A model generated the notes under the pieces. The model had not been told where the DNA came from and did not search any database. It worked only from the letters and a program-made list of their open reading frames with translations. A stretch of DNA of 63,952 nt, filler included, from Chrysochromulina tobinii (taxonomy: Eukaryota): NCBI GenBank assembly GCA_001275005.1. It is 5 parts of 5 records of this genome, joined end to end, with 100 filler letters (N's around TTAATTAATTAA, not from the genome) between each part and the next. Parts side by side here need not be neighbours in the genome. Positions count along the whole stretch, not along the records: positions 14,708 to 27,053 come from JWZX01001430.1; positions 27,154 to 38,911 come from JWZX01001431.1; positions 39,012 to 61,558 come from JWZX01001432.1; 2 more parts are not named here. One strand, given 5' to 3'. The first letter of the stretch is position 1. Every line of letters begins with the position of its first letter. A program made the translations under genes and the position numbers. Of this stretch, positions 16,468 through 52,200 are shown piece by piece.

Positions 16468-17844
16468 CTACCCATGGCAGCGGATGCTCTCGGCCGCATT
16501 CTTGGCGGACGACTGGCCGCCCTTTTGGAGCTTCCGTTGGTGGATCTTCTCCGCCGGCCAGAAGACCTTCGCGGGGCGCACCTGTGGGGAGAGTATTGCG
16601 CCGTGGTGAGCACTTGCATGCCGAGCCGGCCAGAAGATCTTCGCGGGGCGCACCTCTGTCACTACCTTACGCCGATAGCGCATCTGACGCTGCTGCTCCT
16701 TCTCAATCGACAAGAGAGCGGCCGCTCGCTGCGCCTCGTTGTGCGGGTACAGGCCCGTGCGGTACTGGGTGCCCACGTCGTTCGCGCCGTCCGGCGTCGT
16801 CGCCATGTTCAGCCGCGTGCTGTCCCAAATTTGGGTCGAGAGAAGAAAGAAGCTTCTCAGAGCTCAATCAGAGTAATCATAGTAATCATAGGTCAACCAA
16901 GGACAATCAAGCGCACACACCTGTCCACGGTCGAAAGAAGCTTATCGCAGAGCGCTTCGTAGCTGACCAGTTTAGGATCATAGGTGAGCATCAGAGCCTC
17001 GGTATGCCCAGTGAGGCCGGAGCTCACCTCCGCATAGCTCGGCCGCTCCGTGCGACCCTGCGTGTACCCGACGCACGTCTGGATCACCCCGGGCAGCCGT
17101 TGGAAGTGCAGCTCCGTCCCCCAGAAGCACCCGCCTGCAATTAGGGCAATTAGGGCAATTAGGGCAATTAGGGCAATTAGGGCAATTAGGGCAATTAGGG
17201 CGAGACTCAGAGGGAGGGGTCCCCCAGAAGCACCCGCCTGCAAAGGTCGCCACCTCATACTTGCCGTCGGCCGAGCGCATGGGCACCTCGCCCGCGAGCG
17301 CCCACGCAGCGGCCTGGCTCGCGAGCGAGTTGACGGCGGCGCCCTCGCTCTCGAGGCCCTCGCTGTAGTGGTCCACTTTGCCCACGCCCGCCATGCGCGC
17401 CAGCTGATAGGACATGTACGCGATGAGGACCACGCCGCCGCTGAAGGACGTGTACGGGAAATCGGACAGCGCGGCCCCGTTTGCGATCCAGCTCACGATG
17501 GCCACATTAGCCGCCAGATCCTTGAGAGTCAACCCAACGATCGCCGTATACGCGATCGCGTACAGCGACGGGAAGGGAATTTCGGCGAGCACGTTCGTCT
17601 CTCCCGCGACCGCCGCCGGCACAATGGTCGGCGGTGGCTCCTTGACCTTTTCGGCCATCCGGAGCGCGTGCGAGCGGACGGCGACCGCTGCCGGCACAAT
17701 GGTCGGCGGTGGCTCCTTGACCTTTTCGGCCATCCGGAGCGCGTGCGAGCGGACGGCCGTGGGTCGCACGCGCGCATGTACGTTTGGCGCGAAGCTTGCG
17801 CTCGCAGCGTGCAGCACACTCAGCAACGAGAAGACAAAACGCAT
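16468..17844 (-). CDS. msrA: Plastid-targeted peptide methionine sulfoxide reductase A (366 aa); exons 17844-17238, 17134-16921, 16819-16654, 16581-16468
   Basis: Spliced product has ATFAGGCFWGTE, VGYTQG, GLTGHTEA, NDVGTQYRTG, FWPAEKIHQ, CHG*. N-terminal ASASFAP motif. Intron phases are consistent; the first intron is GC-AG. Confidence 0.92.
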
Positions 17845-18356
17845 GTTGCGAAAATACATGAAAGTTCGCGGAAACTCCGTACTCGTGTGGCGCAGACAAG
17901 TCAATTCATGTCAAGCCCACCGGCGTCAGATACGCGGAACATTCGGGCCCCAATGTGTCGGGCAGGGGCGGGTGTGGCATGCAAAGGCATGCGCCAACGT
18001 ACGTCCCGATCGCGGCCCGCGCCGAATGATCAATTAGGCTTGCGTCGTGAGGTCGTGTCGACGTCGTCTCGCCGCCGGCCGCGGCGGTCAGGACGGGGGG
18101 GGCGCGCGCGGTGCGGGTCGGACACTCGAGTGAACCTGTCTCGTGATTATATTATAATTAAGGACGGGATGGCACCCAGCCATTACAAAAGGGCTCACAG
18201 GCTGTCAGTGGTAAGACTTTCTGAAGAACCTCACCACGGTCGCCCCGCCGCCAATGTGTGAATGTGAAACCCACCCCAGAAGACGAGCTATCTGCGCGCG
18301 CTCGCTCCTCGCTCTCACTGCCGTGTGTGTTGTGCAGATCACATCACTGACGTTCA

Positions 18357-21300
18357 CTACAACAGGAAGCGGTCGTCGAGCAGCGTCTTGGCAGCGATGT
18401 TGCGCGACGCCAGCTCGGAGCGCACGGCGCGTAGCACAAAGTCGAAGATGTACGCGAAGAAGATGGCGATGTACGTATTCTGGGTCGCCATGTCGAAGAG
18501 GCAGTACGTGAGCACCATGAACATGACGACGTCGTACTCACGCCCCGCGAGCAGCAGGCGCTTGAACCGCCCCTCGGTGTCTTCGAGGAAGATGGAGCGC
18601 TCGCCGTACCCCTGATGAGGGAGGCAATCAGCATGAGGAGGGAGGCTCTCAGCATGAGGGAAGCAATCAGCATGGTTTCGGTGTCCACTCAGTGATCACT
18701 CAGTGGCGATCAGAGGTAATAGGAGGCCATCAGAAGTAATAGGAGGCCATCGGAGGTAATAGGAGGCCATCAGAGGTAATAGGAGGCCATCAGAGGTAAT
18801 AGGAGGCCATCGGAGGTAATAGGAGGCCATCAGAGGTAATAGGAGGCCATCAGAGGTAATAGGAGGCCATCAGAGGTAATAGGAGGCCATCAGAGGTAAT
18901 AGGAGGCCATCAGAAGTAATAGGAGGCCATCAGAGGTAATAGGAGGCCATCAGAGGCAATAGGAGGCCATCAGAGGTAATAGGAGGCCATCGGAGGTAAT
19001 AGGAGGTCATCAGAGGTAATAGGAGGCCATCAGAGGTAATAGGAGGTCATCGGAGGTTATTCGTGTGCGGGGGGCTCGTCGGGTTTCGTCGCACCATATC
19101 GGGCGGTAGGCCGTACTGCTCGTTGCCTATTTTGGCACGCACGATCGGCTTCTCCGCAGGCGCGCCGCCCGCCGCCCGCTCATCGAGGTTGCTTGCCGCC
19201 TGCGGCGACGGCGTCGCGAGATACCCCATCAGGTACCTGTGGGGAAGGGAGGGCGCCGTGGTGAACACATGCATGCACGGCGTCGCGAGCTACCCCATCA
19301 GGTACCAGAGCAATCAGGGTTCGTCAGGGCTCATCGGGTTCGTCAGGGTTCGTCAGGGTTCGTCAGGGCGAGCACCGATTGGCTCCCGCTGGCGCTTGAG
19401 TCAATCAGTCTCAGGTTCGTCGGGGTTCGTCAGGGTTCGTCAGGGCGAGCACCGATTGAGCTCCCGCTGGCGCTTGAGTCCTTCGTCAGGCGCGGCGCGA
19501 AACCCCTTGGTGCGCACACTGACGGGACCCCGGGTCGTACGCACGTTCCGACGGCCGGGCGGCGGTCGGCGCGTCGGCTCCGCGTAGAGGACGCCCGCGA
19601 AGGCCGCGTCGTACTTTTCGCGCATCCGGCGCGAGAGGTAGATCTCGTACCTGTGGGGAAGGGGAGGGCGCCGTGGTGAGCACATGCATGCAAGGCGGTA
19701 CTTTTCGCGCAGCCGGTGCGCGAGAGGTAGAATCTCATCTCGTATGTACGTTTGTACGTTCGAGTCCGGTGTGAAGCCGCGCGTCGTGACGAGGCTCTCG
19801 GCCTGTGGGGAAAGCGAGGGCGCCGGGGTGAGCACATGCATGCAAGGCGGAGGAGGGCTTCCATTCGAAGAGCGCTGTGGTGAGCGCCTCGAGCTTGAGG
19901 TTGGCGTTGAGGTGCGCCATGTCGGCGATCAACAGCAATCAGCAGCAATCAGTAGCAATCAGCCGCACTCACCTCGAGCTTGAGGTTGGCGTTGAGCTGC
20001 GCCATGTCGGCGTCCGCGTGATCGTGCGCCGAGCGCCCGTGCAGATAGAAGCCGAAGTGCTTCTCCTCGAGCAGGATGCAGCTGATGTTGGTCACCTGAT
20101 GAGGGGCGCAATCATTCGCAATCTGTGAGGCAATGAGTGGCAATCCCCTCGAGCACGATGCAGCTGATGATGGTCACCGCGAGCAGATCGACAAACTTCC
20201 CACAGGGCTCGTCAGGGTTCGTCAGGGTTCGTCAGGGTTCGTCAGGGCTCGTCAGGGCTCGTCAGGGCACGTCAGGGCTCTCACCGCGAGCAGATCGACG
20301 AACTGCCACACCCTGTCCTTGATGCGACGCTGCCAGAAGGCCCACATGAACAGGTACTGGGAGAGGGAGGCTGCGAGGAGGAGGCCGGTCGAGAGGGCGA
20401 AGCGCAAGAGCATGTGCTCGGGCGTCGAGGCGTCGCCGTTGCCTTTCGGGACGAGGCGGATGGCGTCCACTAGCCCCAACCCCTCCTGCGCATGGCGATC
20501 CGAGGTGATCCGAGGCGATCAGAAGCGATCAGAAGCGATCAGAGGTCCTCAGAGGCCCTCAGAGGTAATAAGAGGCGATAAGAGGCGATCTGAGGCAATC
20601 CGAGGCGATCTGAGTCAATCAGAGTCAATCCGCGGCGATCCGCGGCGATCCGAGGCAATCACGTACCTGGACGAAGAGGAGGACGAGGAGGCTGAGCTCG
20701 CTCGAGATCGTGCGAGCATCCTGTGGGGAGAGGGGGGGAGGCGCCGTGGTGAGCACTTGCATGCGCCTCGGGAGAGAGCCTCAGTGACGATCCGACTGAC
20801 CTGCAGCTTGACCCACTCGTTGGCGACGAAGATCGTGCGCCACACGGAGACGGGCGTGCTGCCGCCACCTGCGTGGGGCGGGGGGGAGCGCCGTGGTGAG
20901 CACGTGCATGCACGGAGACGGACGAGATGCTGCTGTTACCGATCTTTTCGCCCGCGTCCTCCTCATCTTTGGCCCCGACGCCGGCGGAGCGCGGCTGCCG
21001 AACACGAGGAGGACAGAGGGGGTCAGTGGCTGATGAGGGAAGCCATCAGTGGCTGATGAGGGAGGAAATCAGAAGGTGCTCACCTGCTCCCAATCAGGGG
21101 CAATCAAGCGTAATCCAGCATAATCAAAAGGTCCTCACCTGCTCCCAATCAGGGGCAATCAAGCGTAATCCAACGTCATCCAAAGTGGCTCACCTGCTCC
21201 CAATCGATGAAGAAGAGGTCGTGCTGCGTCTGCACGAGGAGCAGGTCGATCATTTGGAGGCACTGGGCGATGAAGAGGATGATGATGAAGACCTGGAAGG

Positions 21301-24300
21301 GCATCCACGGGCCGACCATGTACATGCTGTCGAGCGGGCGGGCGACGGGCATGAAGAAGAAGAGTTCGTTCTGAGCTTTGTAGAGGATCATCCACCACGT
21401 ACAGATGAAGTACAAGAGGAAGAAGAAGACGGTGGCGAAAGCACCCGCAACCTGGAAGACCACATCAGGAAGACCACGCGGTGACACGTTGCCATATTAG
21501 GCGACGAGCCGTCAGGAGCAATTAGGGCAGCGCAATCAGCGCAATCAAGCGCCGTCCTGGGCACCTGGCAGAGGACGCGGTGGTAGTCGCCGAAGTTGCC
21601 CGAGGTGCGCTGCACAAGCACGTACACGTAGATGGCCGAGAGGATGAGGCAGAGCACGATGGCGATGATGAAGAGCATATTGATCGTCTGGTCCGAAGGT
21701 TGCCATATTAGGCAATTAATGTGTGTCAGAGAGAGCCAATCATGGGCACCATCAATGGTAATCAAGGGCAATCAGCGCACCTGGCCCGAGTTCTCGAACT
21801 CAAGGGTAATCAAAGGTAATCAAGGGCAATCAGCGCACTTGGTCCGAGTTCTCGAACTCAAGGGTAATCAAAGGTAATCAAGGGCAATCAGCGCACCTGG
21901 TCCGAGTTCTCGAACTCCATCGTGTATGTCATCCGGAAGAGTGCCGGAGCAATCACGCCAGATCGCTCGAGCTCAGCCTCAAACTCGAGGGGTGACGTGG
22001 CGGCGGCGGGCTTGATGATGTCCGCGTACTCGATCTCGAGCTGGGGAGGTAGCATCTGCCGAGGGAGGTGATCAGAGGCAATCAAGGGAGCTTCGATCTC
22101 GAGCTGGGGAGGAAGCATCTGCCGAGGGAGGTGATCAGAGGTCATCGTAGGCTATCAGAGGCAATCAAGGGAGCTGGGGAGGAAGCATCTGCCGAGGGAG
22201 GCGATCAGAGGTCATCGTAGGCTATCAGAGGCAATCAAGGGAGCTGAGGAGGAAGCATCTGCCGAGGGAGGCGATCAGAGGTCATCGTAGGCTATCAGAG
22301 GCAATCAAGGGAGCTGAGGAGGAAGCATCTGCCGAGGAGGTGATCAGAGAGGCCATCAGCAGCACTCACCTGTGAAGGTGTCCCGTCGTTGCTCTTGACG
22401 ATGATTGTGAGCTTTGCCGAGCGTAGGTAACGCACCTGATGAGGGAGGCAATCCGAGGCTCATTAGTGCTCATCAGAGGAGCTGCCGCCGAGCGTAGGTG
22501 ACGCACCGCCTCGGGAAGCTTGCCCGAGGCTCATTAGTGCTCATCAATGCTCATTAGTGCTCATCAGTGCTCATCAGGTACGCACCGCCTCGGGAAGCTT
22601 GCCCGAGCTCGCACCGCCGCCGCCAGCTGAGACGCCCGAGACGGCGTCGAGCACGTAGAAGCGGCGCGTGAGCTGATCGTCAGTCGTGAGTCCCCCCGGC
22701 TTGTTGACGACCTGTGCGTTGCGCTTGTAGTTGGTCACCCGCACCGGGATCGGGTAGAGGAAGCATGAGCCGCTCGACGCGGCGGAGGTGGTCGAACCAG
22801 GGGGAGGGGGCGACGTGGCGGAGGTGGTTGACGCGCCGCCCTGAGCACAAGCTCGCCCGAGCTCCTCGATGGGTGTGAGCGAGTGCTCCCCGGTTTCGTC
22901 ATAGTAGAGGTACCTGATGAGGGGAGGCAATCAGTGGCTGATGAGGGAGGCAATCCGCGACCCTCAGTGGCCATCAAGATGCCCTCGATTTCGCACACAG
23001 GTGCCATCAAGAGGCGATCAAGAGGGTCATCAGGCACGTACATGTCGTACAGCACCACGTCGGTTCGCTGCGAGAGGAGCCTCAAGGCGGGCACCTGTGG
23101 GGAGAGGACGCCGTGGTGAGCACTTGCATGCTGGGGTGGTATCGTCGTCGGTTCACGAGAGGCGCGCAAGGCGAGCTCAAGGCGAGCTCAAGGCGAGCTC
23201 GCACGCACCTCGCACGCGAGCTCCAAATCGGTACCGACATTGAGGAAGGCGGACGGGTCCGATGCACCGCCAGGGCAGAGCTGAAGCTGATCGGAGAGCT
23301 CCTGCGAGATGATGAGGGAGGCAATCAGGGAGGTAATCAGGGAGGTAATCAGGGAGGTCATCAGAGCTGAAGCTGATCGGAGAGCTCCTGCGAGATGATG
23401 AGGGAGGCAATCAGGGAGGTAATCCTCCTGCGAGATGATGGATGAGGGAGGCAATCAGAGGCTCCAGCAGGCCGAAATACAGGCCGAAATACAGGCCGAG
23501 ATACAGGCCGAGATACAGGCCGAGATACAGGCCGAGATACAGGCCGAGAAACGTGCCCTTCCAGCACTCGACGCGCAATCGATGCGCAATATTTGCGCAA
23601 TATTTGCGCAATCAATGCGTACTCTAGGCGCACTCAAGGCGCACTCAAGGCGCACTCGAGGCGTACCTGCAGGCCGAGGTACGTGCCGTTCAGGCTGTAG
23701 GCTGCCAGCAGAAAGCGCAGCCTCGAGCCGGCCGCCATAGGCAGCGCGAGTGTGAACGGGATGGACGGTGCTGCGCGCGTGATCGCTTGGTCGCCCCGAT
23801 CGTAAAAGAGGCCGGGGAGAAACCGCACCTGTGGGGAGAGAAGGGCGCCGTGGTGAGCACATGCATGCTTGGTCGCCCCGATCGTAGAAGAGGCCGGGGA
23901 GAAACCGCACCTGTGGGGAGAGAAGGGCGCCGTGGTGAGCACATGCATGCTTGGTCGCCCCGATCGTAAAAGAGGCCGGGGAGAAACCGCACCTGCATGC
24001 CAGTGGGGAGGGCCATGAGCATGAGCGCGATCTTAGTAAGGAAGGGCACTTGGGCATGCATGCAATCACGCACCCATTCTTCGTTGCTGTCGACCGAGTT
24101 GAGCGCGTTCGAGGCCTTCAGATACTCGAACGCCTTGCATGCATCATTGTCTTCATCGTAGTTGGCGAGCACGCACCTGTGGGGAGAGCAGGGCGCCGTG
24201 GTGAGCACTTGCATGCATAATTGTCTTCATCGTAGTTGGCGAGCACGCACAGGTTGCCGACGGCCTGGCATGCCCGGGTGCCCGCGAGGAGCGTCTGTCG

Positions 24301-25092
24301 GTTCGGCTCCGGCGCGGCGATCGCACGCCGGCACGCGGCAAAATTGGGCTCGAAGAGTTGCATGATGGCTATCGAATCCGTCACGCTCTCAGAGAGGCTG
24401 GCTCCTTGTCCAGGGAGGATGGCGTCGAAATCCTTCTTGAAGTCGAGGCGGATGCTGTCCGGCCGCGTGCTGCCTTCGGGCTGGTACACGCACGACTCGT
24501 CACGCCCCCAGAGCCCGCCGGTGTGAAGCCGGTTTGTGAAGGCCGGCGACGGGCACGCGCACACGTAGCCTGACGTGGCAGTCGCCTGCATGAGCGCATC
24601 GGAGCAGTCGACGCAGACGCCATTGGAGGGCTGCTGGCCAGTGGGACAACGCCGGCACTCAAAGCTCGGCAGCAGTGCGCCGTTCTCGTCGCGTTCCACG
24701 AGCACTTGGCCCGATCCGGCCGGGCACCCGCACGTTCTGCGCACGAATCCGGGCACGATCTGGCTTGTGTAGATCGTCGAAGTGCCGTTGCACAAGAGGC
24801 AGCTCCGACCATCGCGCGTCGCGGCTTGGTTTGCCGGGCATGCGTTGCACGAACCCGTCGTCGTGTCACCGTCCGAGAGCGCCCTGCTCCCCGAGCACTG
24901 GCATGAAGTGCCGAGCGAGTCGGGCGCGGTATTCGTAGGGCAATCGTAGCAGCGGAGCGTGGAGACGTCGAGATACTGGTTCGGGCCCGTGCATGCCGGG
25001 TAGGAGAAGGCGTCGTACTGGCCGCGAGCCGCAGGCGGCAGCGCGACGAGAAGCAGCAGGCGCAAGTCGAGAGCCTTCATGAGTTCCTTCAT
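18357..25092 (-). CDS. TMEM67: Meckelin (TMEM67/MKS3), ciliary transition-zone protein; 19 exons, 1111 aa
   Basis: Cys-rich N-terminus, ACQAVGNLCVL, HDLFFIDWE, VSVWRTIFVANEWVKLQ, QFVDLLAVTNIS, GFYLHGRSAH, RNIAAKTLLDDRFLL*. One continuous frame results from removing introns 24177-24250, 23829-24073, 23302-23666, 23095-23208, 22914-23041, 22436-22585, 22056-22369, 21688-21896, 21452-21564, 20995-21193, 20869-20939, 20721-20800, 20486-20666, 20096-20284, 19803-19972, 19651-19749, 19237-19452, 18612-19094. Confidence 0.93.
18709..19060. repeat. Intronic 20-bp minisatellite (AGGAGGCCATCAGAGGTAAT), ~17 copies
   Basis: Directly visible tandem array inside the last meckelin intron. Confidence 0.95.
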
Positions 25093-27053: not shown

Positions 27054-27153
27054 NNNNNNNNNNNNNNNNNNNNNNNNNNNNNNNNNNNNNNNNNNNNTTA
27101 ATTAATTAANNNNNNNNNNNNNNNNNNNNNNNNNNNNNNNNNNNNNNNNNNNN
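27054..27153. other. Artificial contig linker
   Basis: 44 N + TTAATTAATTAA + 44 N. Confidence 0.98.
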
Positions 27154-30369: not shown

Positions 30370-31603
30370 CCAGCTCCAGCGCCACCAGCAACAGCAGCGG
30401 CCAGAGGAGCGACGCTTATGCGGCGGCCAACGGCTCGGCCGACGGCCTACGGCTCGGCACACGTACATGTAACGCTCTGCTCGCGGCGCTCGTCGCCTCG
30501 GGAGAGGTGAGCTCGGCGACCCATGTGCTGCTGAGCGACGTGATTGCCTCTGATGACCTCGAATGACCTCTGATGGCCTCCCTCATCAGGTGAGCTCGGC
30601 GACCCATGTGCTGCGCGCCATGGAGGAGGGTGCCGCGCACCCGCCGAATGCGTACTCGTACTGCATCATGATGAGCGCGTATGGCGCGCGCAACCAGCTC
30701 GGGAACGCCGAACGCTTGTGGAAGCTGCTCTGGCAGCAGGGGTGGGTGGACACCGTCGTTCTCAACTGTTGGCTCCAGGCGTGCATTACCAACGGCGAGG
30801 TACAGCGTGCGCTCCTCGCGCCGAGCCTCTGGGCATCTGCATGCACGTGCTCACGATGGCGCTCGCTCCCCTCTCCCCGCAGGTGCCGCGTGCGCTCCAG
30901 GCGTTCCAAACGGCCAAAAAGGAACTTCCCAGCCTGCAGCTGGACAAGGTGACCTTCGGGACCCTCATCAACGGCCAACTGAGCGACGTGATTGCCTCTA
31001 ATGACCTCTGATGCCCCCCCTCATCAGGTGACCTTCGGGACCCTCATCAACGGCCTCACCCGACCCTACGGCGCGAACAACAATGTGGCGAGCGCGCGAC
31101 GCGCCCTCCAGCTCTGGGCCGAGATGCGCCTGCTCGGACTCGCGCCCGACGCGCGGATCGTCACGCCGCTCTTCGACGCATGCACCCGGCACGTGGGTGT
31201 CGAGACAGTGCTCAAGCTGCGCGTCGAGCTCGTGCGCATGGGCTGGAATGTCGCCGCACTCCGCCCCCACGACCAGGTGCTCATCGCCGCGCTACCTTCA
31301 CTCAAAGAGGTGCTTCGCGATCAGCCCAAGTGGGAGGCTCTCGGCGTGCGTCTCCCTCCCACGCTGGGCTCCGAACAGGCGCAGCTCAGCCTCACCATGC
31401 CCGCGCTCCCGACCGCCGTCGTCCCTCCCGCGGCGACGTCGGTCCCACGGGCCGGCCGTGCGGAGTTTGAGCACGACGACGGCACGGAGGTGCCGTGCGT
31501 CGTTGAGGATGACGAGTGCGCCGCGCAACCCGCGAGCGCAGGCGAGGAGATCTGGGAGCGCCATGCGTGGAATAGCATGGACGGCTCCTGGAGGTACATA
31601 TAA
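28947..31603 (+). CDS. Pentatricopeptide repeat (PPR) protein with signal peptide, 803 aa; introns 30507-30589, 30800-30882, 30949-31027
   Basis: PPR motifs TFCILIKGYGRAG, TLNALLDAYARNG, TYNTLIKGYS, PNEVTYSTLIHAC, VTFGTLINGL; removing the three phase-0 introns restores the frame. Confidence 0.9.
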
Positions 31604-32284: not shown

Positions 32285-35200
32285 ATGGCCACCACCAAGA
32301 CCGAAGAAGGCGTCCACGTGCTGGGTTCGGGCAATACCTTTGAGCGCCCGTTGACGGTCAACGAGCCTTGTGCCTTCTCCTTTGCCTTCTCTGTGGACGG
32401 CAACCTACCGCTCGAGTTCTCGGTGATGCTCCGCGCCAAGGGCAAGGACATGCAGCTGCTGCCAGCAAGTAGATATGCGGAGCTCGACGGAGAGGTGCTT
32501 CTTCCGGGTGCCGGCACGTGCATCGCACGGTGGCACAACCCGTCCGGCTGGGTGTTTAATGCGCCGGCGGCCACGCTGTACTTCAAGCTGCAGGTGCTCA
32601 AGCAGACCCCGATGCCCGCACTCAAGAGCCCGGCCGCCGCGCCGGCGCCCCCTGCGCCCGCCGAGCCGGCCAGCGCCGAGCCGGTCGAGCCGCCGAGCCC
32701 GGAGCCCCCCTCGAGCGCCATGCTCGCCGCCATCGACGCGGCCGTCGAGGTGGCCAAGGCGAAGGCCGCCGGGGCAGCTAATGCCGCGGCGGCTGAGGCT
32801 GGGGCGGCCGAAGCGGTGAGGGCGAAGGCCGCCGCGGCGGCGCAAGCTGAGGAGGCCGCTGCCGCGGCGGCGCAAGCTGAGGAGGCCGCTGCCGCGGCTG
32901 CGGAGCAGGCAGCCGCGGCGGAGGCTGCCAAGGCGGAGGCGGAGGCGGAGGCGGCGGCCATGGAGGCTGCGAAGGCGGAAATGGAAGCGCAGGCGGCGGA
33001 GGCGGCGGCCGCGGCGAGCGCCGCCCTGAGCGCCGCCATCGAGGCAGCCATCGAGGCAGAGGCGGCGGAGAACCCCGGGGAAGCGCCCCCACCGTGGGTT
33101 CCGTCAACTTCGTCGGTTGCATCATGGGTGACCCACGAAGGGCTGCTTCAGAAGCGCACGAGCGCGAGCGTGCCGGCCGGGGGCATACACGAGGTGTGAA
33201 GTGAAGCATGGGCTGTGAAGCGCACACAGTTGCTCCGCCTGATCGAGCTCTGATGTGCTCTGAGTGCGACTGATGGCCGCTGAGTACATCGTAATTGTGG
33301 CTCCGCCCCTGAGCTCAAGCTGTGATGACCCCTAATGACCTCTGATGACCCTAATGACCTCTGATGACCCCCGATGACCCCTGATGACCTCGAACCGCCT
33401 CCAATGACCCCTGATGACCTCTGATGACCCCTGATGGCCTCCGATGGCCTCTGATGGCCCCTGATGACCTCAAACCGTCTCCAATGGCCTCAGGTGAAGC
33501 TGACTGTGCCGAGTGGCGGCGCCCTCCTGCTCACCACGGCGCCCGCTCCCTTCCCCACAGGTGAAGCTGACTGTGCCCAGTGGCGGCGCCCTCTTCCTCT
33601 CGTGCACGCTCGGACCGAACAAGCCGGCGTCCTTCTCCGCGTACATGGCCCCGCTCACGACGGCGCTCCACGAGCCGCCCGCGACGGCGCGTGGGGAGAC
33701 GTACGCGGTGGTGCGCGCGGCGCCGTCGGAGATTGACAAGCTCATTGGGTACCCTCTGCCAGCGGCCGCCGAGCATGCTCTCTCTGCGAGGCACGCGAAC
33801 GCGACGCTCCTCGGCAAGGCGGCGAGAGACGCTGCGATCGAGCTGGAGTGGGCCTACGAAGTGAATACCAACGGCCAGCGGGCCTTCACAGAGGCCATCG
33901 AGCTGACCGATACGGCGCTCGTGCGCCTCGAGATCGACGGTGCGTGCGAGCTGACGCTGTCTTGGGAACATGTGTCCACGACGTGGATCTTTCGCGATAG
34001 TGAGACGCCGTTGGCGTGGAGCGCGACGCTGCTGCGCCTCGTGCCTGACATGGGCGCTGAGCTGGGCGCCGGCGGCACACCCACCGCCCCCTCAGCCACC
34101 ACCACCACCTCCTCCTCCTCCTCCTCCTCCTCCTCCTCCTCCTCGCCGCCACCGCCGCCGCTTCCGCAACCCGCGTCGCCAACAACGTTGTCACCGCAGC
34201 CGCCGCTGCCTCCACAACTAGCCACCGGCACCACCGGCGTCACACGCCCACACTGGTCGCCGCACCGGTCGTCGCCGCTCGCCCGTCCCGCCCAATACGA
34301 CGCGCCCGATACGGCGCGCGAGCTCGCGAGCTCGCCGTCGGCGTCCACGCCGCCCGCCAACCCGGCGCCTGCTCAACACGACGCGCTCGATCAGGCACCC
34401 ACGCCGCCGTCGGCGAGCTCGCCGCCGCCGCCGCCGCCCACGACGGCGGGCGCCCAATACGACGCCCTCATGCAAAAGGCGATGGACGAAGCTCTCGCTA
34501 AGGCTCTAGCAGGCGCGACTTTGACGAAGCCGGCGTTCGTCAACGTCGCGCCTGTGCTGGCGGAGGCGCCCGCCTCGGCGCCCGCCTCGGCCGCTCATCA
34601 CGGCGCCACGGCGCCCATCACGCCCGCCCATCACGCCGCCCACCACGCCCTCACGTGCCGCCCCTGCGCCCGACACGGCGCCATCTCCAGGAACGGTTAC
34701 CTCCGTCGAGAGGACCACCGGCGCCGTGGCGGGCGCATCCGTCGAGGATAGGGGCGCTTCCCTCGTCGCCTCTCTGAGGGTCGATGCCGAGTCTGCTGTA
34801 GCTGACGACGGCGAGGGCGAGGCGCCCCGCACCGGCTTTCGAACGCGGATGCCGCCGCCCTCGCCCTCGCCCTCGAACGAGAATGTCCGTGACATGCCCT
34901 CCAGTTTGCGCCTGCCTTTGGCGCAGGAGGACGAGGACGAGGACGAGGACGAGGAGGACGACGACGAGGACGAGGAGGACGACGAGGATCTTTCGCAGAT
35001 CACCCGCCACCCCTCCCTCGGCGCCGACGGCGGCGACGGCAGCCTGCGCTACTCGACGTCTGCCGAGTGGGCATTGATTGAGCAAGGGAAGCTGAATGGG
35101 GTGCCCGCCACGACGCTCGACGCTCGAGAGCCCACCGAGGCGCCCAACACGACGCGGTCGCTGCCCGGCCCGGCGCCCCCCCCTGACCCTGAGGAGGAGG

Positions 35201-38911: not shown

Positions 38912-39011
38912 NNNNNNNNNNNNNNNNNNNNNNNNNNNNNNNNNNNNNNNNNNNNTTAATTAATTAANNNNNNNNNNNNNNNNNNNNNNNNNNNNNNNNN
39001 NNNNNNNNNNN
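38912..39011. other. Artificial contig linker
   Basis: 44 N + TTAATTAATTAA + 44 N. Confidence 0.98.
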
Positions 39012-44200: not shown

Positions 44201-44795
44201 CGAGGATTCAGCGGAGGGCGTTGGAATTGCACCTCACGTTCCCGCGCTTTCGATCCCAGCCTGCCGGCCATCCGACGCAGCAACAGGTGGCGGACCGTGG
44301 GGTCAAACGTCAAAACGGTGGTCTCCAACCTTGTCTCGAGAGACATCGGAGCCATCGCCACGTCCAGTAACATCAGCGAGAGTGGTGACCGTTGGTAGCC
44401 CAACCCCAATGCCGCCGTCGCCCGCCGTCGCAGTGGCGCCCGCCGTCGAGGGCCTGGACGACGGGCACGCGTATGTACGGGTGCCGCTCGCTTTACCCGC
44501 ACGTTCACCGCTCGCGCCCGAGGCGGCGCACAGCGCCGGCCACGCCCAGCCTTCGGTGCGTAATTCGATGTGCGAGGGCCAGACACGCCGGCACGCCGAC
44601 GAGGCGACACCTCTGCCAGAGACGTCGCCACGTTGGGCGCAGGTGTCGCCACGTCGGTCCGCGGAGGAGGTAACTCGCGAGTTGCCTCGCGAGCCGCCCG
44701 AGGACACGGTGCTTAACCTTGGCGCCGAGTCTGCCTTTTCGAACGAGCTCGATGGCTCTGTAGCTCATGCTACTGTGCCAGTACAAGACATGTAG
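41226..44795 (+). CDS. Two-pore-domain (TPK/KCO-like) potassium channel with C-terminal EF-hand-like motifs, intronless
   Basis: Two pore loops YFASVTASTVGYGD and YHCLVTASTVGYGD, each flanked by TM helices; FRLLDVQGDGRVGMTDL EF-hand; start taken as ATG 41226. Confidence 0.88.
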   Translation: MSELATTSVLVPPIGAGPETKARSPRVTILESPRGPGLYSRTRISCDSPRHSPGLSLRRPSDRPSKETNLSPDSSSPRSRSPSLQKFDPFKRSKSPVTPAAQAALASFEVAHTPELVRAQSMARSMLARKKVKETLSAQKSTSSFRDLDRFCNATRKELLELFVEPNVPIRIRVAYPPTGHESRAGSFQMIGPPANLATLLLSFGLKPDAAAPQGVISPKCQVTLPDEIKLAVGIPLAATHFAFLYPLRQFKDMNVSTGMNLSEEIWCFALILGGFAYFAHDGEILAINAMTIVPSAVVLPFIGPYAVSARSSLSLMKHKRLTHVTVHGLLDVGFKRLAWVHPGEQLDVEHPSTEDEHHGGHPHGGFVYEMSDGRVVLFSLVANVGALKEDEINRNGAFVKAFISVRKLFVDSVDHHEMLKANRFLFRRLLRELGKLTVILGIYFGVSCAFFCPVQKWTALEAIYFASVTASTVGYGDLVPTEYWAARAITIVMIFVGVLVILPSLSAVMTLALKQLSYEKWVRKLTRAASSLSSSLFRRKAPILVRQEKSVQDLLAGIPARGKPKPKLKPKLARSPRSPASSTNKLRLPLRSPHDEEKGTPIKPRLVRRPTLEEKEKAVRLDATGRALLESSWRFYPKNLAPSLFLNVVLQLCSAYFFVLIERWDYGTALYHCLVTASTVGYGDVRINTTEGRSWAVVHVLLSCALLGSTIEIFDDLRLERIKESKMIAALNQQLTPTLLKRIEIHSAALRPDVRRDAAGVTELEFVISMAIELGMVDLKQLQPFIEQFRLLDVQGDGRVGMTDLNALVALNEAIRKGSGADSIRSMNDLLLKKKHQSEGDVTWCSASSTRGKRGYAQEGHWGKKVAAHLGSTGLRAPPPKKADKVLFGSSLVAMWIARRNRRIRENHRESTSSKVHPGPTASPGPLPSPTSSSRNLLPRFNISPTSSSRNLLPRFNISPTSSSRNLVHSPTLHPQVPPLFPPVIPLVDPAEDSAEGVGIAPHVPALSIPACRPSDAATGGGPWGQTSKRWSPTLSRETSEPSPRPVTSARVVTVGSPTPMPPSPAVAVAPAVEGLDDGHAYVRVPLALPARSPLAPEAAHSAGHAQPSVRNSMCEGQTRRHADEATPLPETSPRWAQVSPRRSAEEVTRELPREPPEDTVLNLGAESAFSNELDGSVAHATVPVQDM

Positions 44796-44968: not shown

Positions 44969-45059
44969 CTCCTACAAGTAGTCGGTGGGATCACAAATTC
45001 ACACACACATTCACACACATTCCCTGGGCGAGCGGAATCGTGGCGCTTCTGGTGCTGGG

Positions 45060-46224: not shown

Positions 46225-49200
46225 ATGGCGTCAGCCACGGCGGCTTCGGCTGCTGGTCCTGTGACATCAGCAGCTGCTGCTGCACTGCTCAGCAATGATG
46301 GCCCGGCCTGGCAGGCGGCCGCTGCCGTGCTCATCGGCCAAGTGCTCACGGGCGACCCTCGGTACAAGTCGGTGGCCGCGATTGGCGATATCCGGCGTGC
46401 GGCAGCCTCGAGCGCAACAGCCCGCAGTTTGCTTGTCGGCAGCACTGCGTTAGTGACGGGTCTCGCTGGTGTGCTGCGGCCGCTTACCGATCGGTCATGC
46501 TACCAGCTGAGCCATCAGCTGCCATCAGCTGAGACCATGGCTGCCGCCGAGGTTGCTGAAGCTGTCGTGTGGCTCTTTGGCTGGCTGCTGCCCGTTCCGC
46601 AGAACGCGGCGGTGCTGCACGTGCGCGGCGACGCCGCGCTGCTGCTACGGATGTCGCGCCAGGGCGCCACTCGCGGGCTGCGCCATGCGGCCCTCGTCGC
46701 GTACACGATCCTTCACGTCGCCGACGGCTCGGCGACGGACGTCGCCTCAGCCATCGAGGCTCTCATCGCGTCGACGAGAGAGGGCATCGCGCTCGTGAGG
46801 GCGCGCGTGGCGGGCGCCGACACAAATGATGCGTCGTGGCGTGTTGTCAGCTGCCTGAGCGCCTTGTGGCACCTGCTCGGAGGTCGGAGCATGCCCCATC
46901 CCGACGGCATCAGGCGGGATGTGAGCGCGCCTAGTTCGGTGTTGGCGATTTCGTCACTCCGGCGCGCGGCGCGCGAGGCCTTTGAGCGGGCCGATGGGCT
47001 GCTGCGCCTCAAGGAGCTCATCGGTGCGCTCGACGCCGCATTCATTGGCGACGCCATCGATGCGTCTTCCGCTTCCCCATCCGCCGCGCAGGCCACCGCG
47101 CAGGCCGCGGCGCATTCACAAGCGCATTCACAAGCGCATTCACAAGCGCAGGCACAAGCGCAGGCACAAGCGCAGGCACAAGCGCAGGCACAAGCGCAGG
47201 CGGAGGCGCTCTGGCTCTTGCGTGCGGCGCTGCGAGTGCTCGGCGCGTCGGTGCGCTCGGAGCCCGAGCTGGCAGCGCGCTCGTGGGCGTTCTTGGGCGG
47301 CACCGAGGGGGTCGTCGCCCTCTTGGGCGGCTGCGGCTTGCTGCACAGTGGGCACGCGATCTCCGTGCTCGAGGAGATCCTCGAGCTCACCTCGGGATCG
47401 GAGGCGCAGCTCTGGGCAGCGGCGGCGGTTGTGCTGCGCCTGCTGCCGCGGCTGCTTCGTGACGTGGCGGCGGCAGCCTCACTCCTCGAGGCAGTCGAAC
47501 GACGAGCGCTGAGCAGCGAGGCTACTGCGGTGCAGCTCTCCCGCGCTGGCTTGCTCTGCGCGGCCGTCCACCTCCTACGTCAGTTGTGGAAGGGCATCGA
47601 TGCGTCGTCTTGGGCGGATCGCGTGCACGATGCAGCAGCGGACGACGAGTCGGCTGCCAACGAGGAGCCGCGCCCGAGTGCAGCCGTGCCCGAGCACGTC
47701 GCGGCCGGTGCAGCGTCGCGTCCAGTTTCGTCAGCTTCGGCGGGCTCGCCACTGCTGCGCACGCTGCTGCGCTTGACGGTGCGCCTGGCGCGTGCGTGGA
47801 GCTCGCCGCAGGAGGTGCGGCTGCTGCTGCAGGCGGCGGCGGGCGCCGACGACGTCGCAGCTGGGGCTGACGGAGCGGCCAGCCCGTCGTCAGTGCGCTG
47901 GCTCGCCCTGCTCGTCGCGGCGACCCGTCCCGTAGGCCCATCCCTCCCCTACATGCACCTCTCGCCGCCCGACGAGAGGGCTTCCAAACATGGATTGGTG
48001 GCCGAGACGGCGCTCCTGAAGGTGGGGATGCTCGAGCGTGCGTGGCCACCCGCGGCGGGCTATAGCGCGGGCGCGTGGGTGCGTCGGCCCCCGCTCCCAT
48101 CCGGCGCTCAAGGTGGCGCTCAAGGTGGCGGCTCGTATGTGGACGAGCCGCCTTTTGCGCTCTTCGCGTTTGAGACGGCCGATGGGAGGAGCCGTGTCGT
48201 CTGTGAACTACATGCTGCGGCAGGTGGGAGTGCAAGCCTGACGCTGGTGACGGGCTCGAGCGCGAAGACGATGCGTAAGGGCGTCGCGCTGCCGTTGGTG
48301 CCCGGCAACTGGCATCACGTGTGCCTCGTGCATGAGCGGCGTCGACCTCTCAACGCGTCCCCGCTCGTTGTCTACGTCGACGGCGTCGCGCACTTCCGCG
48401 GTACCTTTCAGTTCCCTCCGTTTGACTGCTGCCACTCCGTCGACGCCAAGGTGGGCTATGTCAACGCGGATGAGCTCGGCGGCGGCGGCGGCGGCGGCGG
48501 CGACGGCGAGGGCGGCGGCGAGGGCGGCGGCGAGGGCGGCGGCGGCGGTGAGGGGGGCAGAGGCGGCGCACGCGCCCTGGGATGGCACCTCGGCCCCCTC
48601 TTCGTCGCGGAGGTGTTGCTGAGCGACGCGCAGGTGCGTGAGGCGTGTGCGATGGGGTGCTCGCCGCCCTGGGTGCTTCCACAGCTCGGTGAAACGCAGA
48701 TCGACGAGCTGCGAGTCGAGATCATGACGTGCTGGTTGCAGTCGGCGATGGCCACGTCAGCGGCGGCCATCGAAGCGGCCGTGAGCTCGAGTGGTGGCGG
48801 CACAGTAGAGAGCCACGAGCTTCGGATTCCGCCCGCCAAGATCCTGATGCTGCTCAACGGCCACTTTGACGAAACGCCATTTGACCAGAGGGAGCCGGCG
48901 CGCGTGCGCCCGCGCAGCCTGCCGCAGTCCCTCGCGGCGGCGGGTGGCCCCGCAGCGCTCTTGATGGTGGTCCGCCACGCCAACGACACACGGAGTCTGG
49001 TGCTCGCCCTGCGTCTCGTGGGCCACTTCCTCACGCTGCATCCGCTCAACGTGCGCGCGCCTGATGACGGACGAGCATGTTCTGATGATGACCTCTGACG
49101 ACCTCTGATATGACGCCCTTGATTGCCTCCCTCATCAGTTGCGCCTGATGACGGACGAGCATGCGGACTTTGGGTTGCGCTTCCTCTTACGCGCCAAAGC

Positions 49201-52200
49201 GCAGCCCTTGCTCGCCGAGGCGCTCTGCGACGCGTTGCTCGAGCTCTGCTGCAAGCAGCACCCACGCACCGCCGCGGCCGCGCGCGCGTTTGACGAAGCC
49301 CTTGAGGGCCTTGCGGCGTCCGCGGGCGCGCTGGCTGACGAAACGGACGAGCTCGCTGAGCACCTGCTCGCCGTGCACATCTCGCCCACATCTCGCGAGC
49401 ATCAGCCGGTACTCGCCAACCGCTCACTGCTCAAGGTGCAGCCGCTCGATAGCGCGCTCTGATGACCTCTGATGACCTCCGATGACGCCATGGATTGCCT
49501 CCCTCATCAGGTGCTGCTGCTCGATAGCGCGCTCTGGGCGCGCGCGACGCCCAAGGCGCAGCGCCACTGGCTGCAGCGGCTGCATGGGCTGCTGTCGGAG
49601 GACGAGGTGGGCACCTCCAATGCCAGCTACCTTGTGGATGCCGGCATGCTCGACAGCATGATGACGCTGCTGGCTTCGGGTCGGCTGCTCGCGGGTGGAT
49701 GCCATCTGCTGGCTGCGCGGCTCGTGCTGCGTACGTGGCACTCAGTCCAGTTCTCGATGGAGGTGACGCGGCGAGTGCATGACTTCCTCGCGGCCACCGC
49801 CCGCCCGCAGCATGCGGACGTGCAGCTGCTCTGCGTGCGCATGCTCGCGCGCATGGTGGAGCACGCGAGCACTTCGCTCGGGGAGGTGGTTTCGTCACGC
49901 GCCGCCGCGAGCGCTGCCACGCGCGCCGTGGTGGCCACGCCGGCGGCAGCCGGCGAGCCGGCGCCGCCGGCCGAGTCTGCGGGCGTACACGCGGGCGCGA
50001 GGGCGGTGCTGGCGGTACTCCAGCCGCCGCTGCTCCTCTCGTTTCTGCAGCCCGAGCACGGCGGACACAACAAGGTTCTCGTCGCGGCGGTCATGCGCTT
50101 GATCGTCAATCTGCTGCTGCTCTCGCAACGGTACCCGGAGCATGTCACCTTTGCGAAGCAGATGGGCGAGTCCCGAGGGTTTGAGAAGCTCTTCGGCGTT
50201 CTCCCGTTGCATGCGGGGGTACCGGACGTGTACCTATCCCTCCTCGCGCTCGCCACCAGCCAGACGCTCGACACGGTGGAGAACAAGGCGCCGCCAGAGA
50301 CGGCGGAGCAGCTGGCCGAGGCCTGTGCGCTGCTCCAGCTCACCTGATGACCTCTGATGACCTCGGATGGCCTCTGATGACCTCAGATGACCTCAGATGA
50401 CCTCTGATGACATCTGATGGCCTCTGATGGCCTCTGATGGCCTCTGATGACATCTGATGGCCTCTGATGGCCTCTGATGACCTCTGATGACCTCTGATGA
50501 CATCTGATGGCCTCTGATGGCCTCTGATGACCTCTGATGACCTCTGATGGCCTCCCTCATCAGGTGCGCTGCTCCTCGCCACGCCCTCCGCCTCGCCCTC
50601 GACGCCCCGACGCCCCAGCATCTCGTCGCCGCTCGGCACGGCGCTCGGCTTGCCCCAGGGCGCTCTCGCGCGCGCCGCCGCCGAGGCAGCGGCGCGGCTG
50701 CAGCAGCGTGCGAGCGGCAGCAGCAGCAGCAGCAGCGGCGCAGCCAGTGGCACGCCAAGCGCTCGGGACGTCGCCGAGGATGGCGCGGCTCCGGCGATTG
50801 AGTGGATCCCGATCAGCCTCGGATTGATAGCCGTCATGTGCCGTGAAGCCCTTCGCACCAAGCGCGCCCCTCCGAGCACGAGCGCCGCATCGAGCGGCTC
50901 GACGAGGGACGAGGGCGCCGTACCGAGCGCCGCCGACGGCTTTGAACTCGTGGGTGCCGAGGCGACGTCCACGGAGCTCACCGTGAGCAGCAGCAGCAGC
51001 AGCAGCAGCAGCCGCGAGGGTGAGGCAGCTGGCACACCAACGGTCGACCGCGCCGTCCCGGTCGACCGCGGCGGCGGCGGCGGCGGCGGCAGCAGCAGCG
51101 GCAGCACGGCCGCTGGGGTGTCGAGCGCACACATGGAACGCGAGCAGGCGGCGGCGAGCGCGTTGCATCTCTTTGTGGCGGTGCTGCCCTCGCTCCGAAC
51201 ACTCGTGATGACCTCTGATGACTCCTGATGACCTCTAATGACGCCCTTGATTGCCTCCCTCATCAGGTGTTGCCCTCGCTCCGAACACTCGTGATGACGG
51301 CGTCCATCTTCGAAGGGGTTCTCCTATCTCCCGCCTCCGAGCTCCTAGGCCGCCTGTGTGCCTCGCTCGGTGCTGTGTGGCTGAGCACCTCCGCCTCGGG
51401 CGCCGCCGCCTCGTACGCTGTCACCGCCGTTCCCTCGTCCGCGCATTCGGGCAGCGCGCGCGCGCTGCCGAGCGCCGTGCCGAGCGCCACGACCGCCCCG
51501 ACCGACCAAGGTGGCAGCGCCGTACTGGGCAGCTCGACACCGCGCCCATCGACGGACGTGGTCAAGGCAACGGTCGAAGGGGACGCGGCGCTGGATGCCC
51601 TCGTGGAGATGCTCAGTACGGCGCTGCTCGATGTGCCGTCGACGCTCGTCTCAAGCGCCGGCCAGACGAGCCTCGATCTGCTCATGGATCCGCTCCCCTC
51701 CCTCGCTCATTCACGGATCGCCTTTGACGTGTGGCTGCGCTTCCGCTGTCTGCTGATTCGAAAGCTCTTCAGTGCGCTGCACCAGGGGCTGATGAGTCGT
51801 TCGGGACCCTTGACGGAGGCGCATGCAAAGGCGCTTGCGCTCCTCTACCGGCGTGTCCTCCGGTTGCAAGCGATCGTGATCCACCCCGTGGACGCGGCGA
51901 CGCCATCTCCCTCGAGCTCCTCGATATCTTCTTCGATCTCATCGAGCACCCCCGACGCTGCCACGTCGAGCACAAGAGACGTCACGTCCCCGGCTGGCTC
52001 TGCTGACGCGCCGCCTCCACCGCCACCAGTGCCCCCAGCACACTCAGCACCCCCGCCGCCCCTGCCGCCTCCACCGACGGCGCCACGGGCACCGCAGGCC
52101 CCAGATCAGGCCTCAGAACAGGCCACTGATCTGCTGCCGCACGCGGAGATGCTCGCCGTCGTCCTCATCCTGCTCGAGCGCGGTGTGGGCGATGAGCGGC

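What the first reader, a model, noticed from the sequence alone, without database searches (positions are those of the whole stretch)
16553..51298. Candidate intron-generating system: exon-start duplication + shared branch-point/AG cassette
Seen: in five unrelated genes (msrA, TMEM67, PPR, GOLD/SAM, BEACH) introns have the form exon1 | X' - cassette - AG | X - exon2, where X' is a direct copy of the first bases of the downstream exon. Examples: 17135-17237 (25-nt repeat, GC donor), 16582-16653 (31 nt, 1 mismatch), 24177-24250 (43 nt, 1 mismatch), 30507-30589 (27 nt), 30949-31027 (30 nt), 33494-33560 (33 nt), 49051-49138 (23 nt), 49436-49510 (26 nt), 50325-50563 (12 nt), 51181-51266 (32 nt). 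More diverged copies occur at 19651-19749, 20869-20939 and 30800-30882. The donor is the GT/GC at the start of X', and the cassette (family A or B) supplies branch point, pyrimidine tract and AG, so splicing restores the protein. Known: introner elements of Micromonas and Aureococcus co-opt splice sites from short target-site duplications and carry terminal inverted repeats. Here the duplications are long and variable, I see no TIRs, the 3' end is fixed and the 5' end ragged. Inference: ongoing intron gain by templated insertion of intron 3' ends at staggered breaks, or by reverse transcription of lariat tails. I cannot check whether this has already been reported for this lineage.
Basis: partly seen in the sequence, partly recalled or inferred. 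Interest (0 to 1): 0.92.

Follow-up and report, generated by a model that had tools for sequence, protein, structure and literature searches.

The report
New introns patched from borrowed DNA
In this haptophyte alga many introns consist of a copy of the neighbouring exon plus filler copied from other introns or nearby DNA, one of them is missing from a 99%-identical relative, and they are likely made by DNA-break repair rather than by a transposon, which would give a traceable source for new intron sequence.

Summary
The pattern is real. 12 of 29 introns in five genes start with a copy of the downstream exon (0 of 812 mismatched pairs); 23 of 29 hold an exon copy somewhere. RNA contigs fit removal of four, and other DNA assemblies hold the duplications.

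Gain is supported. A genomic contig 99.0% identical in exons lacks msrA intron 17135-17237 exactly (one contig, no raw reads). That intron's filler matches an inverted source about 750 bases away which the relative also partly holds. None of 18 TMEM67 intron positions recurs in more distant loci, some of which have their own exon-copy introns with other fillers, including (CCCTAA)n.

Corrections: 33494 is not the donor (RNA: 33194-33560); in 17135 the AG comes from the duplication; cassette A usually starts at a fixed motif.

Junction microhomology is enriched (mean 1.8 vs 0.3 bases); no inverted ends. Best reading: repair synthesis that duplicates the target and copies an intron tail, filtered by splicing (0.5). 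Rivals: reverse transcription, a replitron-like element. Closest: Daphnia break-repair introns and introners. The scan noted this footprint before in another piece of this genome.

The parts
17135..17237 (-). msrA intron, youngest case: 25-base target duplication (TTGCAG|GC...) supplies both splice sites; filler C = 19-21 unique bases plus (CCCTAATTG)7; absent from L022
   Evidence: splicing not tested by RNA (retention would stop the frame at 288 of 366 residues)
16385..16446 (+). Inverted source of filler C just past the msrA stop codon; itself a 14-15-base duplication around (CCCTAATTG)n; partly present at the end of L022
   Evidence: 19 of 19 and 15 of 15 bases identical
16582..16653 (-). 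msrA intron, 29-base exon-start copy + cassette A; shared with L022
   Evidence: in frame (72 bases), not tested by RNA
16820..16920 (-). msrA intron of mirror type (diverged copy of the upstream exon end at its 3' end); L022 has an extra acceptor-spanning duplication (149 bases)
19237..19452 (-). TMEM67 intron; 29-base exon-start copy + cassette A nested at its 3' end, plus donor-spanning duplication missing from L022
   Evidence: RNA joint
19651..19749 (-). TMEM67 intron, diverged exon-start copy used as donor + cassette A whose upstream flank matches neighbour 19803
   Evidence: RNA arithmetic
19803..19972 (-). TMEM67 intron with 40-base copy of the upstream exon end + unexplained 42-base spacer + cassette A
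20096..20284 (-). TMEM67 intron holding a contiguous copy of the spliced junction (exon end + exon start) between 10-mer repeats and cassette B
20869..20939 (-). TMEM67 intron, diverged exon-start copy used as donor + cassette A
   Evidence: RNA arithmetic (score 11, marginal)
21688..21896 (-). TMEM67 intron with donor-spanning tandem units; 0, 1 and 2 extra units in L014, L013 and the window
22056..22369 (-). TMEM67 intron with acceptor-spanning 70-base tandem array; the exon copy starts AT (no donor); 161, 314 and 846 bases in L013, window and L015
22436..22585 (-). TMEM67 intron: exon-start copy + cassette B with a later donor-spanning duplication
23302..23666 (-). TMEM67 intron with nested 26-base exon-start copy (starts GA, no donor), 5-base microhomology
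23829..24073 (-). TMEM67 intron: two units of 44-base exon-start copy + cassette A behind an older, different acceptor
   Evidence: RNA length fits to within one base
24177..24250 (-). TMEM67 intron, 43-base exon-start copy + cassette A, 9-base microhomology
   Evidence: protein continuity with P0001; not bridged by RNA
30507..30589 (+). PPR intron, 25-base copy + cassette B; shares a 21-base segment with 30949
   Evidence: RNA contigs run past it but the upstream piece was not listed
30800..30882 (+). PPR intron, diverged copy + 23-base spacer + cassette A
   Evidence: RNA arithmetic
30949..31027 (+). PPR intron, 28-base copy + cassette B
   Evidence: RNA arithmetic and DNA contigs
33194..33560 (+). 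True intron of the unnamed gene at 32285-35637; 33-base copy + truncated cassette A (33494-33560) nested behind an older B-type CAG
   Evidence: RNA joint
49051..49138 (+). BEACH intron, copy + cassette B (88 bases restores the frame, 84 does not)
   Evidence: no RNA
49436..49510 (+). BEACH intron, 26-base copy + cassette B, 5-base microhomology
   Evidence: no RNA
50325..50563 (+). BEACH intron, 12-base copy + long 10-mer array + cassette B
   Evidence: no RNA
51181..51266 (+). BEACH intron, 32-base copy + cassette B, 7-base microhomology
   Evidence: no RNA
15697..15787 (+). Cassette-A fragment without pyrimidine tract or AG, between 23-base direct repeats (2 mismatches), outside any recognised gene
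   Evidence: surrounding ORFs have no Pfam match; also in L015

Best explanation
These introns carry a copy of the flanking exon plus a borrowed filler, and they are likely new introns made by the host's own break-repair synthesis: a broken DNA end would copy a stretch of another intron's 3' end, or other handy DNA, and rejoin a few tens of bases back, which duplicates the target. Steps: (1) a staggered break or stalled strand end at a proto-splice site in an exon (inferred); (2) the end pairs by a few bases with a template, most often the ...CAG|GT end of an existing intron, and copies it (microhomology and shared tails shown; synthesis inferred); (3) it rejoins 12-44 bases back, leaving exon copy, filler, exon (structure shown); (4) only products whose duplicated GT/GC works as a donor, and that end in a branch point, pyrimidine tract and AG, survive in exons (splicing supported by RNA for four; selection inferred); (5) each survivor becomes a new template and a new target, so tails spread as families and junctions are hit again (nested and mirror copies shown; feedback inferred). 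Whether the template is DNA or pre-mRNA is open.
For: Exact presence/absence of 17135-17237 against a 99.0%-identical genomic contig (18 differences in 1864 exon bases) that keeps its 11 other covered introns. Its filler matches an inverted unique source about 750 bases away (19 of 19 bases), with short overlaps at both joints (AC; TTGC), the geometry of snap-back templated insertion (recalled). Microhomology at the copy/filler joint: mean 1.84 vs 0.29 bases in the null; 4 of 19 have 5 or more vs 0.045 expected; 0 of 3000 randomisations reached either. Fillers are of many kinds: A, B, local antisense DNA, and in other haptophyte-clade loci 10-mers or (CCCTAA)n (6 of 13 introns with a copy vs 7 of 156 mismatched pairs; 0 of 11 in two outgroup loci). 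Mirror copies of the upstream exon end (8 of 29) and splice-site-spanning tandem units of variable number. A cassette-A piece without its 3' end between 23-base repeats outside genes. Weak signs of copying from neighbours: A tails are more alike when close (rho -0.44, p 0.02, 11 copies), and two PPR introns share 21 bases. No significant hairpin in 8 cassettes. No consistent terminal inverted repeat (27 of 29 best matches 7 bases or fewer).
Against: Cassette A starts at GCATGCA in 10 of 11 intronic copies, and loose ends of over 100 contigs per DNA run share that start; a defined element explains this more simply, unless the motif is kept by splicing selection. 10 of 19 joints show no microhomology. 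The neighbour effect fails for B (p 0.09 and 0.65) and for A within TMEM67 alone (p 0.23). The polymorphism rests on one contig, could be a loss or an assembly collapse of a 25-base repeat, and involves filler C, not A or B; all five A/B exon-start-copy introns covered by L013, L019 or L022 are shared. Splicing of that GC intron was not tested. No genome was held, so nothing is genome-wide.
Confidence: 0.5

Rival explanations
1. Target-primed reverse transcription: a non-LTR retroelement enzyme nicks an exon, primes on the 3' end of an excised intron or pre-mRNA tail and inserts it with a variable target duplication and a microhomology-joined 5' end.
For: A fixed AG 3' end, variable 12-44-base duplications, 5' microhomology and sense orientation of all genic A/B copies are the recalled hallmarks. 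In 6 of 12 simple cases the upstream exon does not end in AG, so the AG came with the filler. Non-LTR-derived introners are tabulated, including one Pavlovales family called 'co-opt 5' carry 3'' (PMC12130899 supplement row).
Against: Filler C is antisense to its host gene and not an intron tail. Cassette A reaches about 12 bases past its putative branch A. Mirror copies of exon ends, cis tandem arrays, the 3'-truncated copy at 15697-15787 and (CCCTAA)n fillers need another process. No poly(A) tail is seen at the 3' ends. Orientation in exons is forced by selection.
Confidence: 0.2
2. Cassette A (perhaps B too) is a short non-autonomous element moved by a transposase, e.g. a replitron-like HUH enzyme, with one precise end, one fuzzy end carrying parental flank, and variable target duplications; it is an introner of unusual type.
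For: Sharp start of A at GCATGCA. 19651 carries 6 extra bases matching the flank of neighbour 19803. Replitron-1 insertions in Chlamydomonas have a precise end, fuzzy ends from the parental flank and variable target duplications, and one replitron protein is reported from a Chrysochromulina tobinii locus (PMC10288648 passages). Introners are tabulated for many marine Chrysochromulina assemblies (PMC9860276 supplement).
Against: A is only about 42 bases, with a variable pyrimidine tract, no terminal direct or inverted repeats and no significant hairpin. B has no defined 5' end. It does not explain filler C, mirror copies or other fillers in relatives. No transposase was sought: no genome was held.
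Confidence: 0.15
3. Old introns are being remodelled, not gained: spliced mRNA or cDNA overwrites the 5' part of an existing intron, or a duplicated acceptor survives loss of the first intron; shared tails come from gene conversion.
For: 7 of 19 exon-start copies are nested in larger introns, two as contiguous copies of the spliced junction. ORF fragments from other organisms that run into introns suggest four TMEM67 positions are shared (DWEQ|, KLQ|, LLQ|, Q|V). One outgroup intron lies one base from the last TMEM67 intron.
Against: L022 has an uninterrupted exon at 17135. 0 of 18 positions match in 15 aligned loci, six of which carry introns of their own. The four suggested shared positions all follow a phase-0 Gln codon and none is a simple exon-copy intron. 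In 22436 the outer donor is itself an exon-start copy followed by the intron's own filler, which puts the exon-copy intron first. Phase 0 in 21 of 29.
Confidence: 0.1
4. The duplications are assembly artefacts or chance.
For: No long reads were seen; tandem arrays differ in length between assemblies.
Against: 0 of 812 null pairs; independent short-read contigs span the structures; strains 98.6-99.8% identical in exons carry them with their own substitutions; RNA lacks them.
Confidence: 0.02

Closest known systems
Intron gain by repair of staggered double-strand breaks in Daphnia pulex (Li et al. 2014, PMC4202315; passages read)
   Same: [quoted passage not shown]
   Different: Daphnia exon-intron repeats are 4-12 bases and the source of most fillers is unknown; here repeats are 12-44 bases, fillers trace to other introns' tails or a local inverted source, and tails form high-copy families that supply branch point and acceptor.
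Introners that take the donor from the target duplication: Symbiodinium and Polarella glacialis classes 4/5 and 6/8/10 (bioRxiv 10.1101/2020.10.14.339549, parts 1-2 of 4 read); surveys of Gozashti et al. 2022 and 2025 (passages and supplement rows)
   Same: Families of related introns; donor from the duplicated target and acceptor from the insert; phase-0 bias.
   Different: Those have fixed 3-8-base duplications and end-to-end similarity, often inverted ends. Here the duplication is long and variable and only the 3' part is shared. The 2025 tables give 0 families for Chrysochromulina tobinii, but list an Emiliania huxleyi family of 5 with '10bp terminal direct repeats', 'co-opt 5' carry 3'', which may be the same thing; its sequences were not seen.
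Tandem genomic duplication of an AGGT proto-splice site (reviewed in PMC3443670, passages)
   Same: 17135-17237 takes both splice sites from a duplicated CAG|GC.
   Different: Here the duplication is too short to be an intron alone and is completed by a copied filler; in 6 of 12 simple cases the AG is not in the target.
Replitron-1/N1 insertions in Chlamydomonas reinhardtii (PMC10288648, passages)
   Same: One precise end, one fuzzy end with parental flank, variable target duplication.
   Different: Those are 0.9-3.6 kb elements with short terminal direct repeats and an RG target; none of these is seen here, and intron creation was not among the passages read.

Membership tests
Introner (transposon-derived intron family) | Many related introns at unrelated sites | tested here: met
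   11 A-type and about 10 B-type tails among 29 introns; contigs of other loci pile up on both cassettes
Introner (transposon-derived intron family) | Similarity along the whole intron | tested here: not met
   Only the last 40-45 bases align; upstream is locus-specific
Introner (transposon-derived intron family) | Presence/absence among close relatives | tested here: inconclusive
   Met for 17135 (filler C); 0 of 5 covered A/B exon-start-copy introns differ in presence
MITE-type introner | Terminal inverted repeats | tested here: not met
   Best inverted match near the ends is 7 bases or fewer in 27 of 29, with 8 and 10 in two, no shared motif
MITE-type introner | Short target duplication of fixed length | tested here: not met
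   12-44 bases, variable
Break-repair neointrons (Daphnia type) | Exon-terminal direct repeat at the opposite intron end | tested here: met
   12 of 29 vs 0 of 812
Break-repair neointrons (Daphnia type) | Derived intron-bearing allele against intronless relatives | tested here: inconclusive
   One contig for msrA 17135, no msrA outgroup; TMEM67 positions absent from distant loci
Break-repair neointrons (Daphnia type) | Microhomology or templated filler at the joints | tested here: met
   absent at 10 of 19 joints
Break-repair neointrons (Daphnia type) | Dependence on end-joining enzymes | not testable with these tools
   needs experiment
Non-LTR (target-primed) insertions | Fixed 3' end, variable duplication, 5' truncation | tested here: inconclusive
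   3' end fixed in genes but not at 15697-15787; only 1 of 11 A copies is 5'-truncated
Non-LTR (target-primed) insertions | Autonomous partner sharing the 3' end | not testable with these tools
   no genome held
Replitron / HUH element | Short terminal direct repeats and a terminal hairpin | tested here: not met
   No significant fold in 8 cassettes, z -1.33 to +1.37; no terminal repeat in the alignment
Replitron / HUH element | Cognate transposase with matching ends | not testable with these tools
   no genome held

The most novel reading that the evidence does not exclude
Haptophytes run a transposase-free, self-feeding intron factory: repair of breaks at proto-splice sites duplicates the target and fills the gap with whatever gives a branch point, namely tails of existing introns in this lineage and telomeric CCCTAA repeats (possibly added by telomerase) in another. 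Each new intron is a template and a target for the next, so intron families amplify without being transposons, and most introns of such genomes are young.
Probability: 0.35. Interest if true: 0.9.

Novelty: new variant of a known kind. Interest (0 to 1): 0.76.

Why it matters
Where new intron sequence comes from is an old open question. Current surveys credit transposons, and the Daphnia break-repair introns mostly have no identifiable source. Here the duplicated target, the filler and, in one case, its source and an intron-less relative can all be read, in a lineage with cultures and RNA data. If repair copies intron tails, intron families can arise with no transposon, searches that need end-to-end similarity would miss them, and gain could be tested directly by resequencing or induced breaks. 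The telomere-repeat introns in relatives suggest that one mechanism feeds on different fillers.

Tried and rejected
No whole genome was held, so there is no genome-wide count. Cassette scans gave little: viral contigs 1, 0 and 0 loci; prokaryote genomes 0 and 15 single 18-base matches in prokaryote records, about the number chance gives, not used. Joint tables of both read layings were filled by cassette copies from other loci, so junctions were read from piece coordinates; the joined-form look-up in other runs was not given. A GC donor at 49055, used, breaks the frame and was replaced by 49051. Start codons were off and were redone. Spacers in 19803, 20721, 23095 and 30800 have no clear source in the window. 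The careful tree did not finish; the quick tree is used, with L017, L018 and L020 left out. L002, L003, L006 and L007 may be transcripts, so their lack of introns is not counted as absence. Ten literature searches listed no paper on this intron form in haptophytes. The library lacks most subscription papers, the Emiliania genome paper was not held, files 13-14 of PMC12130899 were not searched, and the PMC9860276 supplement is cut.


Full report
Setting. The window is eukaryotic and about 63% G+C. Its TMEM67 protein falls in a strongly supported clade with a protein named Prymnesium parvum by its source (quick tree), so it is a haptophyte; 'Chrysochromulina-like' is my recalled guess. Pfam confirms msrA, Meckelin/TMEM67, PPR and BEACH, but not GOLD or SAM. 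No genome was held.

The observation. All 13 listed places have the stated form. I modelled 29 introns in the five genes. They restore open frames for msrA (366 residues), PPR (803), BEACH (3275) and TMEM67 (18 introns); the fifth gene needs one more, unverified intron. 12 of 29 begin with a copy of the downstream exon start against 0 of 812 mismatched pairs; 19 hold such a copy anywhere, 8 hold a copy of the upstream exon end, 23 hold either. 21 of 29 are in phase 0 and 18 of 29 downstream exons start with GT, against 4.7% of exonic positions. No consistent inverted ends exist and the cassettes do not fold better than shuffles. Contigs of two other DNA runs span 30949-31027 and 33494-33560 without a differing letter.

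Splicing. RNA contigs are collinear with the exons. The gaps between listed pieces (66 bases; 176, 178, 125, 60 and 149) equal the modelled exon sums. That supports removal of 30800-30882, 30949-31027, 19651-19749 and 20869-20939 from the GT at the start of the copy; it is arithmetic, not a displayed alignment. Direct joints show 33194-33560 and 19237-19452, so the copies at 33494 and 19305 are inside larger introns. Seven exon-start copies are nested in this way, two of them starting with AT or GA.

Gain or remodelling. One scan fetched 21 TMEM67 loci. Six are near-identical to the window (L013-L016, L019, L022); L015 matches it at 2035 of 2035 exon bases. L022 differs at 18 of 1864 exon bases, holds intergenic DNA and 11 other introns, and lacks msrA 17135-17237 exactly, with a single copy of the 25-base target. 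This is one contig: a loss, or collapse of the repeat in assembly, is not excluded, though L022 keeps three other copies of 29-31 bases. The five A/B exon-start-copy introns covered by L013, L019 or L022 are all shared. Splice-site-spanning tandem units vary in number between strains. In the 15 other loci, spliced alignment places introns at none of the window's 18 positions. Six of these loci have introns of their own, four may be transcripts and three are short. Near misses are one intron one base from the last position and one five bases from 20869 in a poorly aligned part. Full-length single-frame proteins on contigs of 17.7 and 22.6 kb also point to intronless relatives. Against this, ORF fragments that run into introns suggest four shared positions, all after a Gln codon and none of the simple exon-copy type (read from translations only).

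Where the filler comes from. The 17135 filler matches, on the opposite strand, DNA just past the msrA stop codon (19 of 19 bases), and the end of L022 holds part of that source. Overlaps of 2 and 4 bases lie at the two joints, and the AG belongs to the duplicated target. Across 19 copy/filler joints, microhomology averages 1.84 bases against 0.29; four have 5-9 bases against 0.045 expected; ten have none. A tails are somewhat more alike when close (p 0.02), B tails are not (p 0.09), and two PPR introns share 21 bases found nowhere else in the window. A cassette-A fragment without pyrimidine tract or AG sits between 23-base repeats at 15697-15787, where ORFs have no Pfam match; this suggests the fixed 3' end in genes comes from selection (one case). 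On the other side, A starts at GCATGCA in 10 of 11 intronic copies, which suits a defined element or a selected splicing motif.

Other haptophytes. In five loci of the same clade, 6 of 13 introns begin with an exon-start copy of 7-22 bases (7 of 156 mismatched pairs; 0 of 11 in two outgroup loci). Their fillers are unrelated to A and B: 10-mers in L003, and in L005, L010 and L011 mostly (CCCTAA)n, always on the sense strand (83 CCCTAA, 0 TTAGGG). TTAGGG is the haptophyte telomere repeat (PMC3622300, passages), and CCCTAAC reads as a branch point (recalled). L010 906-1027 is an 18 of 18 copy followed by such repeats, then duplicated across its acceptor.

Mechanism. Shown: long variable duplications, splicing for four, microhomology, one polymorphism with a local inverted source, repeated events at junctions, and the same form with other fillers in relatives. 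Inferred: a break or stalled end primes on a template, most easily an existing ...CAG|GT intron end, copies it and rejoins upstream; splicing selects the survivors, which become new templates and targets. I give this 0.5, target-primed reverse transcription 0.2, a replitron-like element 0.15 and remodelling 0.1. More than one may operate. That the simple exon-copy introns are gains I put near 0.85.

Known and new. It works like Daphnia break-repair intron gain (PMC4202315, passages: repeats of 4-12 bases, sources mostly unknown) and like introners that take their donor from the target duplication (bioRxiv 10.1101/2020.10.14.339549, parts 1-2; bioRxiv 10.1101/2022.06.06.494994, passages). It fails the tests for MITE-type introners and for end-to-end similarity. 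The 2025 survey lists no family for Chrysochromulina tobinii and a five-member Emiliania family with 10-base terminal direct repeats (PMC12130899 supplement rows). Replitron-1 insertions have similar ends (PMC10288648, passages). Reviews were read in passages (PMC3443670; PMC11282704), as were two haptophyte genome papers that say nothing of this in the passages shown (PMC4580454; PMC12480563). Ten searches listed no description of this form; subscription papers and unseen supplements may hold one. Hallmarks of theta-mediated repair, target-primed reverse transcription and telomerase insertion are recalled.

Verdict: real, a new variant of a known kind, interest 0.76.

Noticed in passing
L005 840-1988, L010 37-2648, L011 2173-2535: TMEM67 introns of another haptophyte-clade lineage are built largely of telomeric (CCCTAA)n, always C-rich on the sense strand, ending CCCTAACCAG; possible telomerase-filled introns.
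   Followed up: partly
window 33194-33560, 23829-24073, 22056-22369, 23302-23666: Internal AG|GT (33493/33494, 23992, 23910) and AG|exon-copy junctions inside introns are candidate recursive or alternative splice sites.
   Followed up: no
L013 1566-1814 and L014 787-1003: After the DWEQ donor both contigs continue into sequence unlike the window's intron 20995-21193: a different intron body or an insertion in that strain.
   Followed up: no
protein P0001 (Prymnesium parvum TMEM67), about residues 750-1420: A mis-annotated retained intron of tandem repeats whose end translates like cassette A, at a position the window lacks; cassette A may be older than this lineage.
   Followed up: partly
protein P0038: An ORF fragment runs into an intron at DWEQ| that seems to hold a copy of the upstream exon end, while the similar P0027 is continuous there: possible parallel gain.
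   Followed up: no
L001 4370-4554: A contig of the viral collection ends in a nested intron of the same kind (exon-end copy, 10-mer repeats, cassette A), so it is probably host DNA or a virus carrying a host-type intron.
   Followed up: partly
window 34513-34690 (+): Candidate further intron with a GC donor and CCCATCACG-type repeats in the gene at 32285-35637; the only candidate found with AG before the donor that restores the frame.
   Followed up: partly
window 6756-11786, 40866-44795, 51267-56540 against 18357-25092: Intron density is very uneven: frames of 1300-1770 residues have no intron while TMEM67 has 18.
   Followed up: no
window 16468-17844 (-): msrA is fused to a long N-terminal region with hydrophobic stretches; 17606-17757 is a 75-base in-frame tandem duplication absent from L022.
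   Followed up: no
window 31930-32170: A high-copy dispersed repeat lies between the PPR gene and the next gene (many contigs laid).
   Followed up: no
window 57500-60100 (-): Leucine-rich-repeat gene with repeated, mutually similar A+T-richer introns of a different type (57765-57835, 58145-58235).
   Followed up: no
window 14608-14707, 27054-27153, 38912-39011, 61559-61658: Four N-TTAATTAATTAA-N joints: the window is stitched from several contigs, so distances across them are not real.
   Followed up: no
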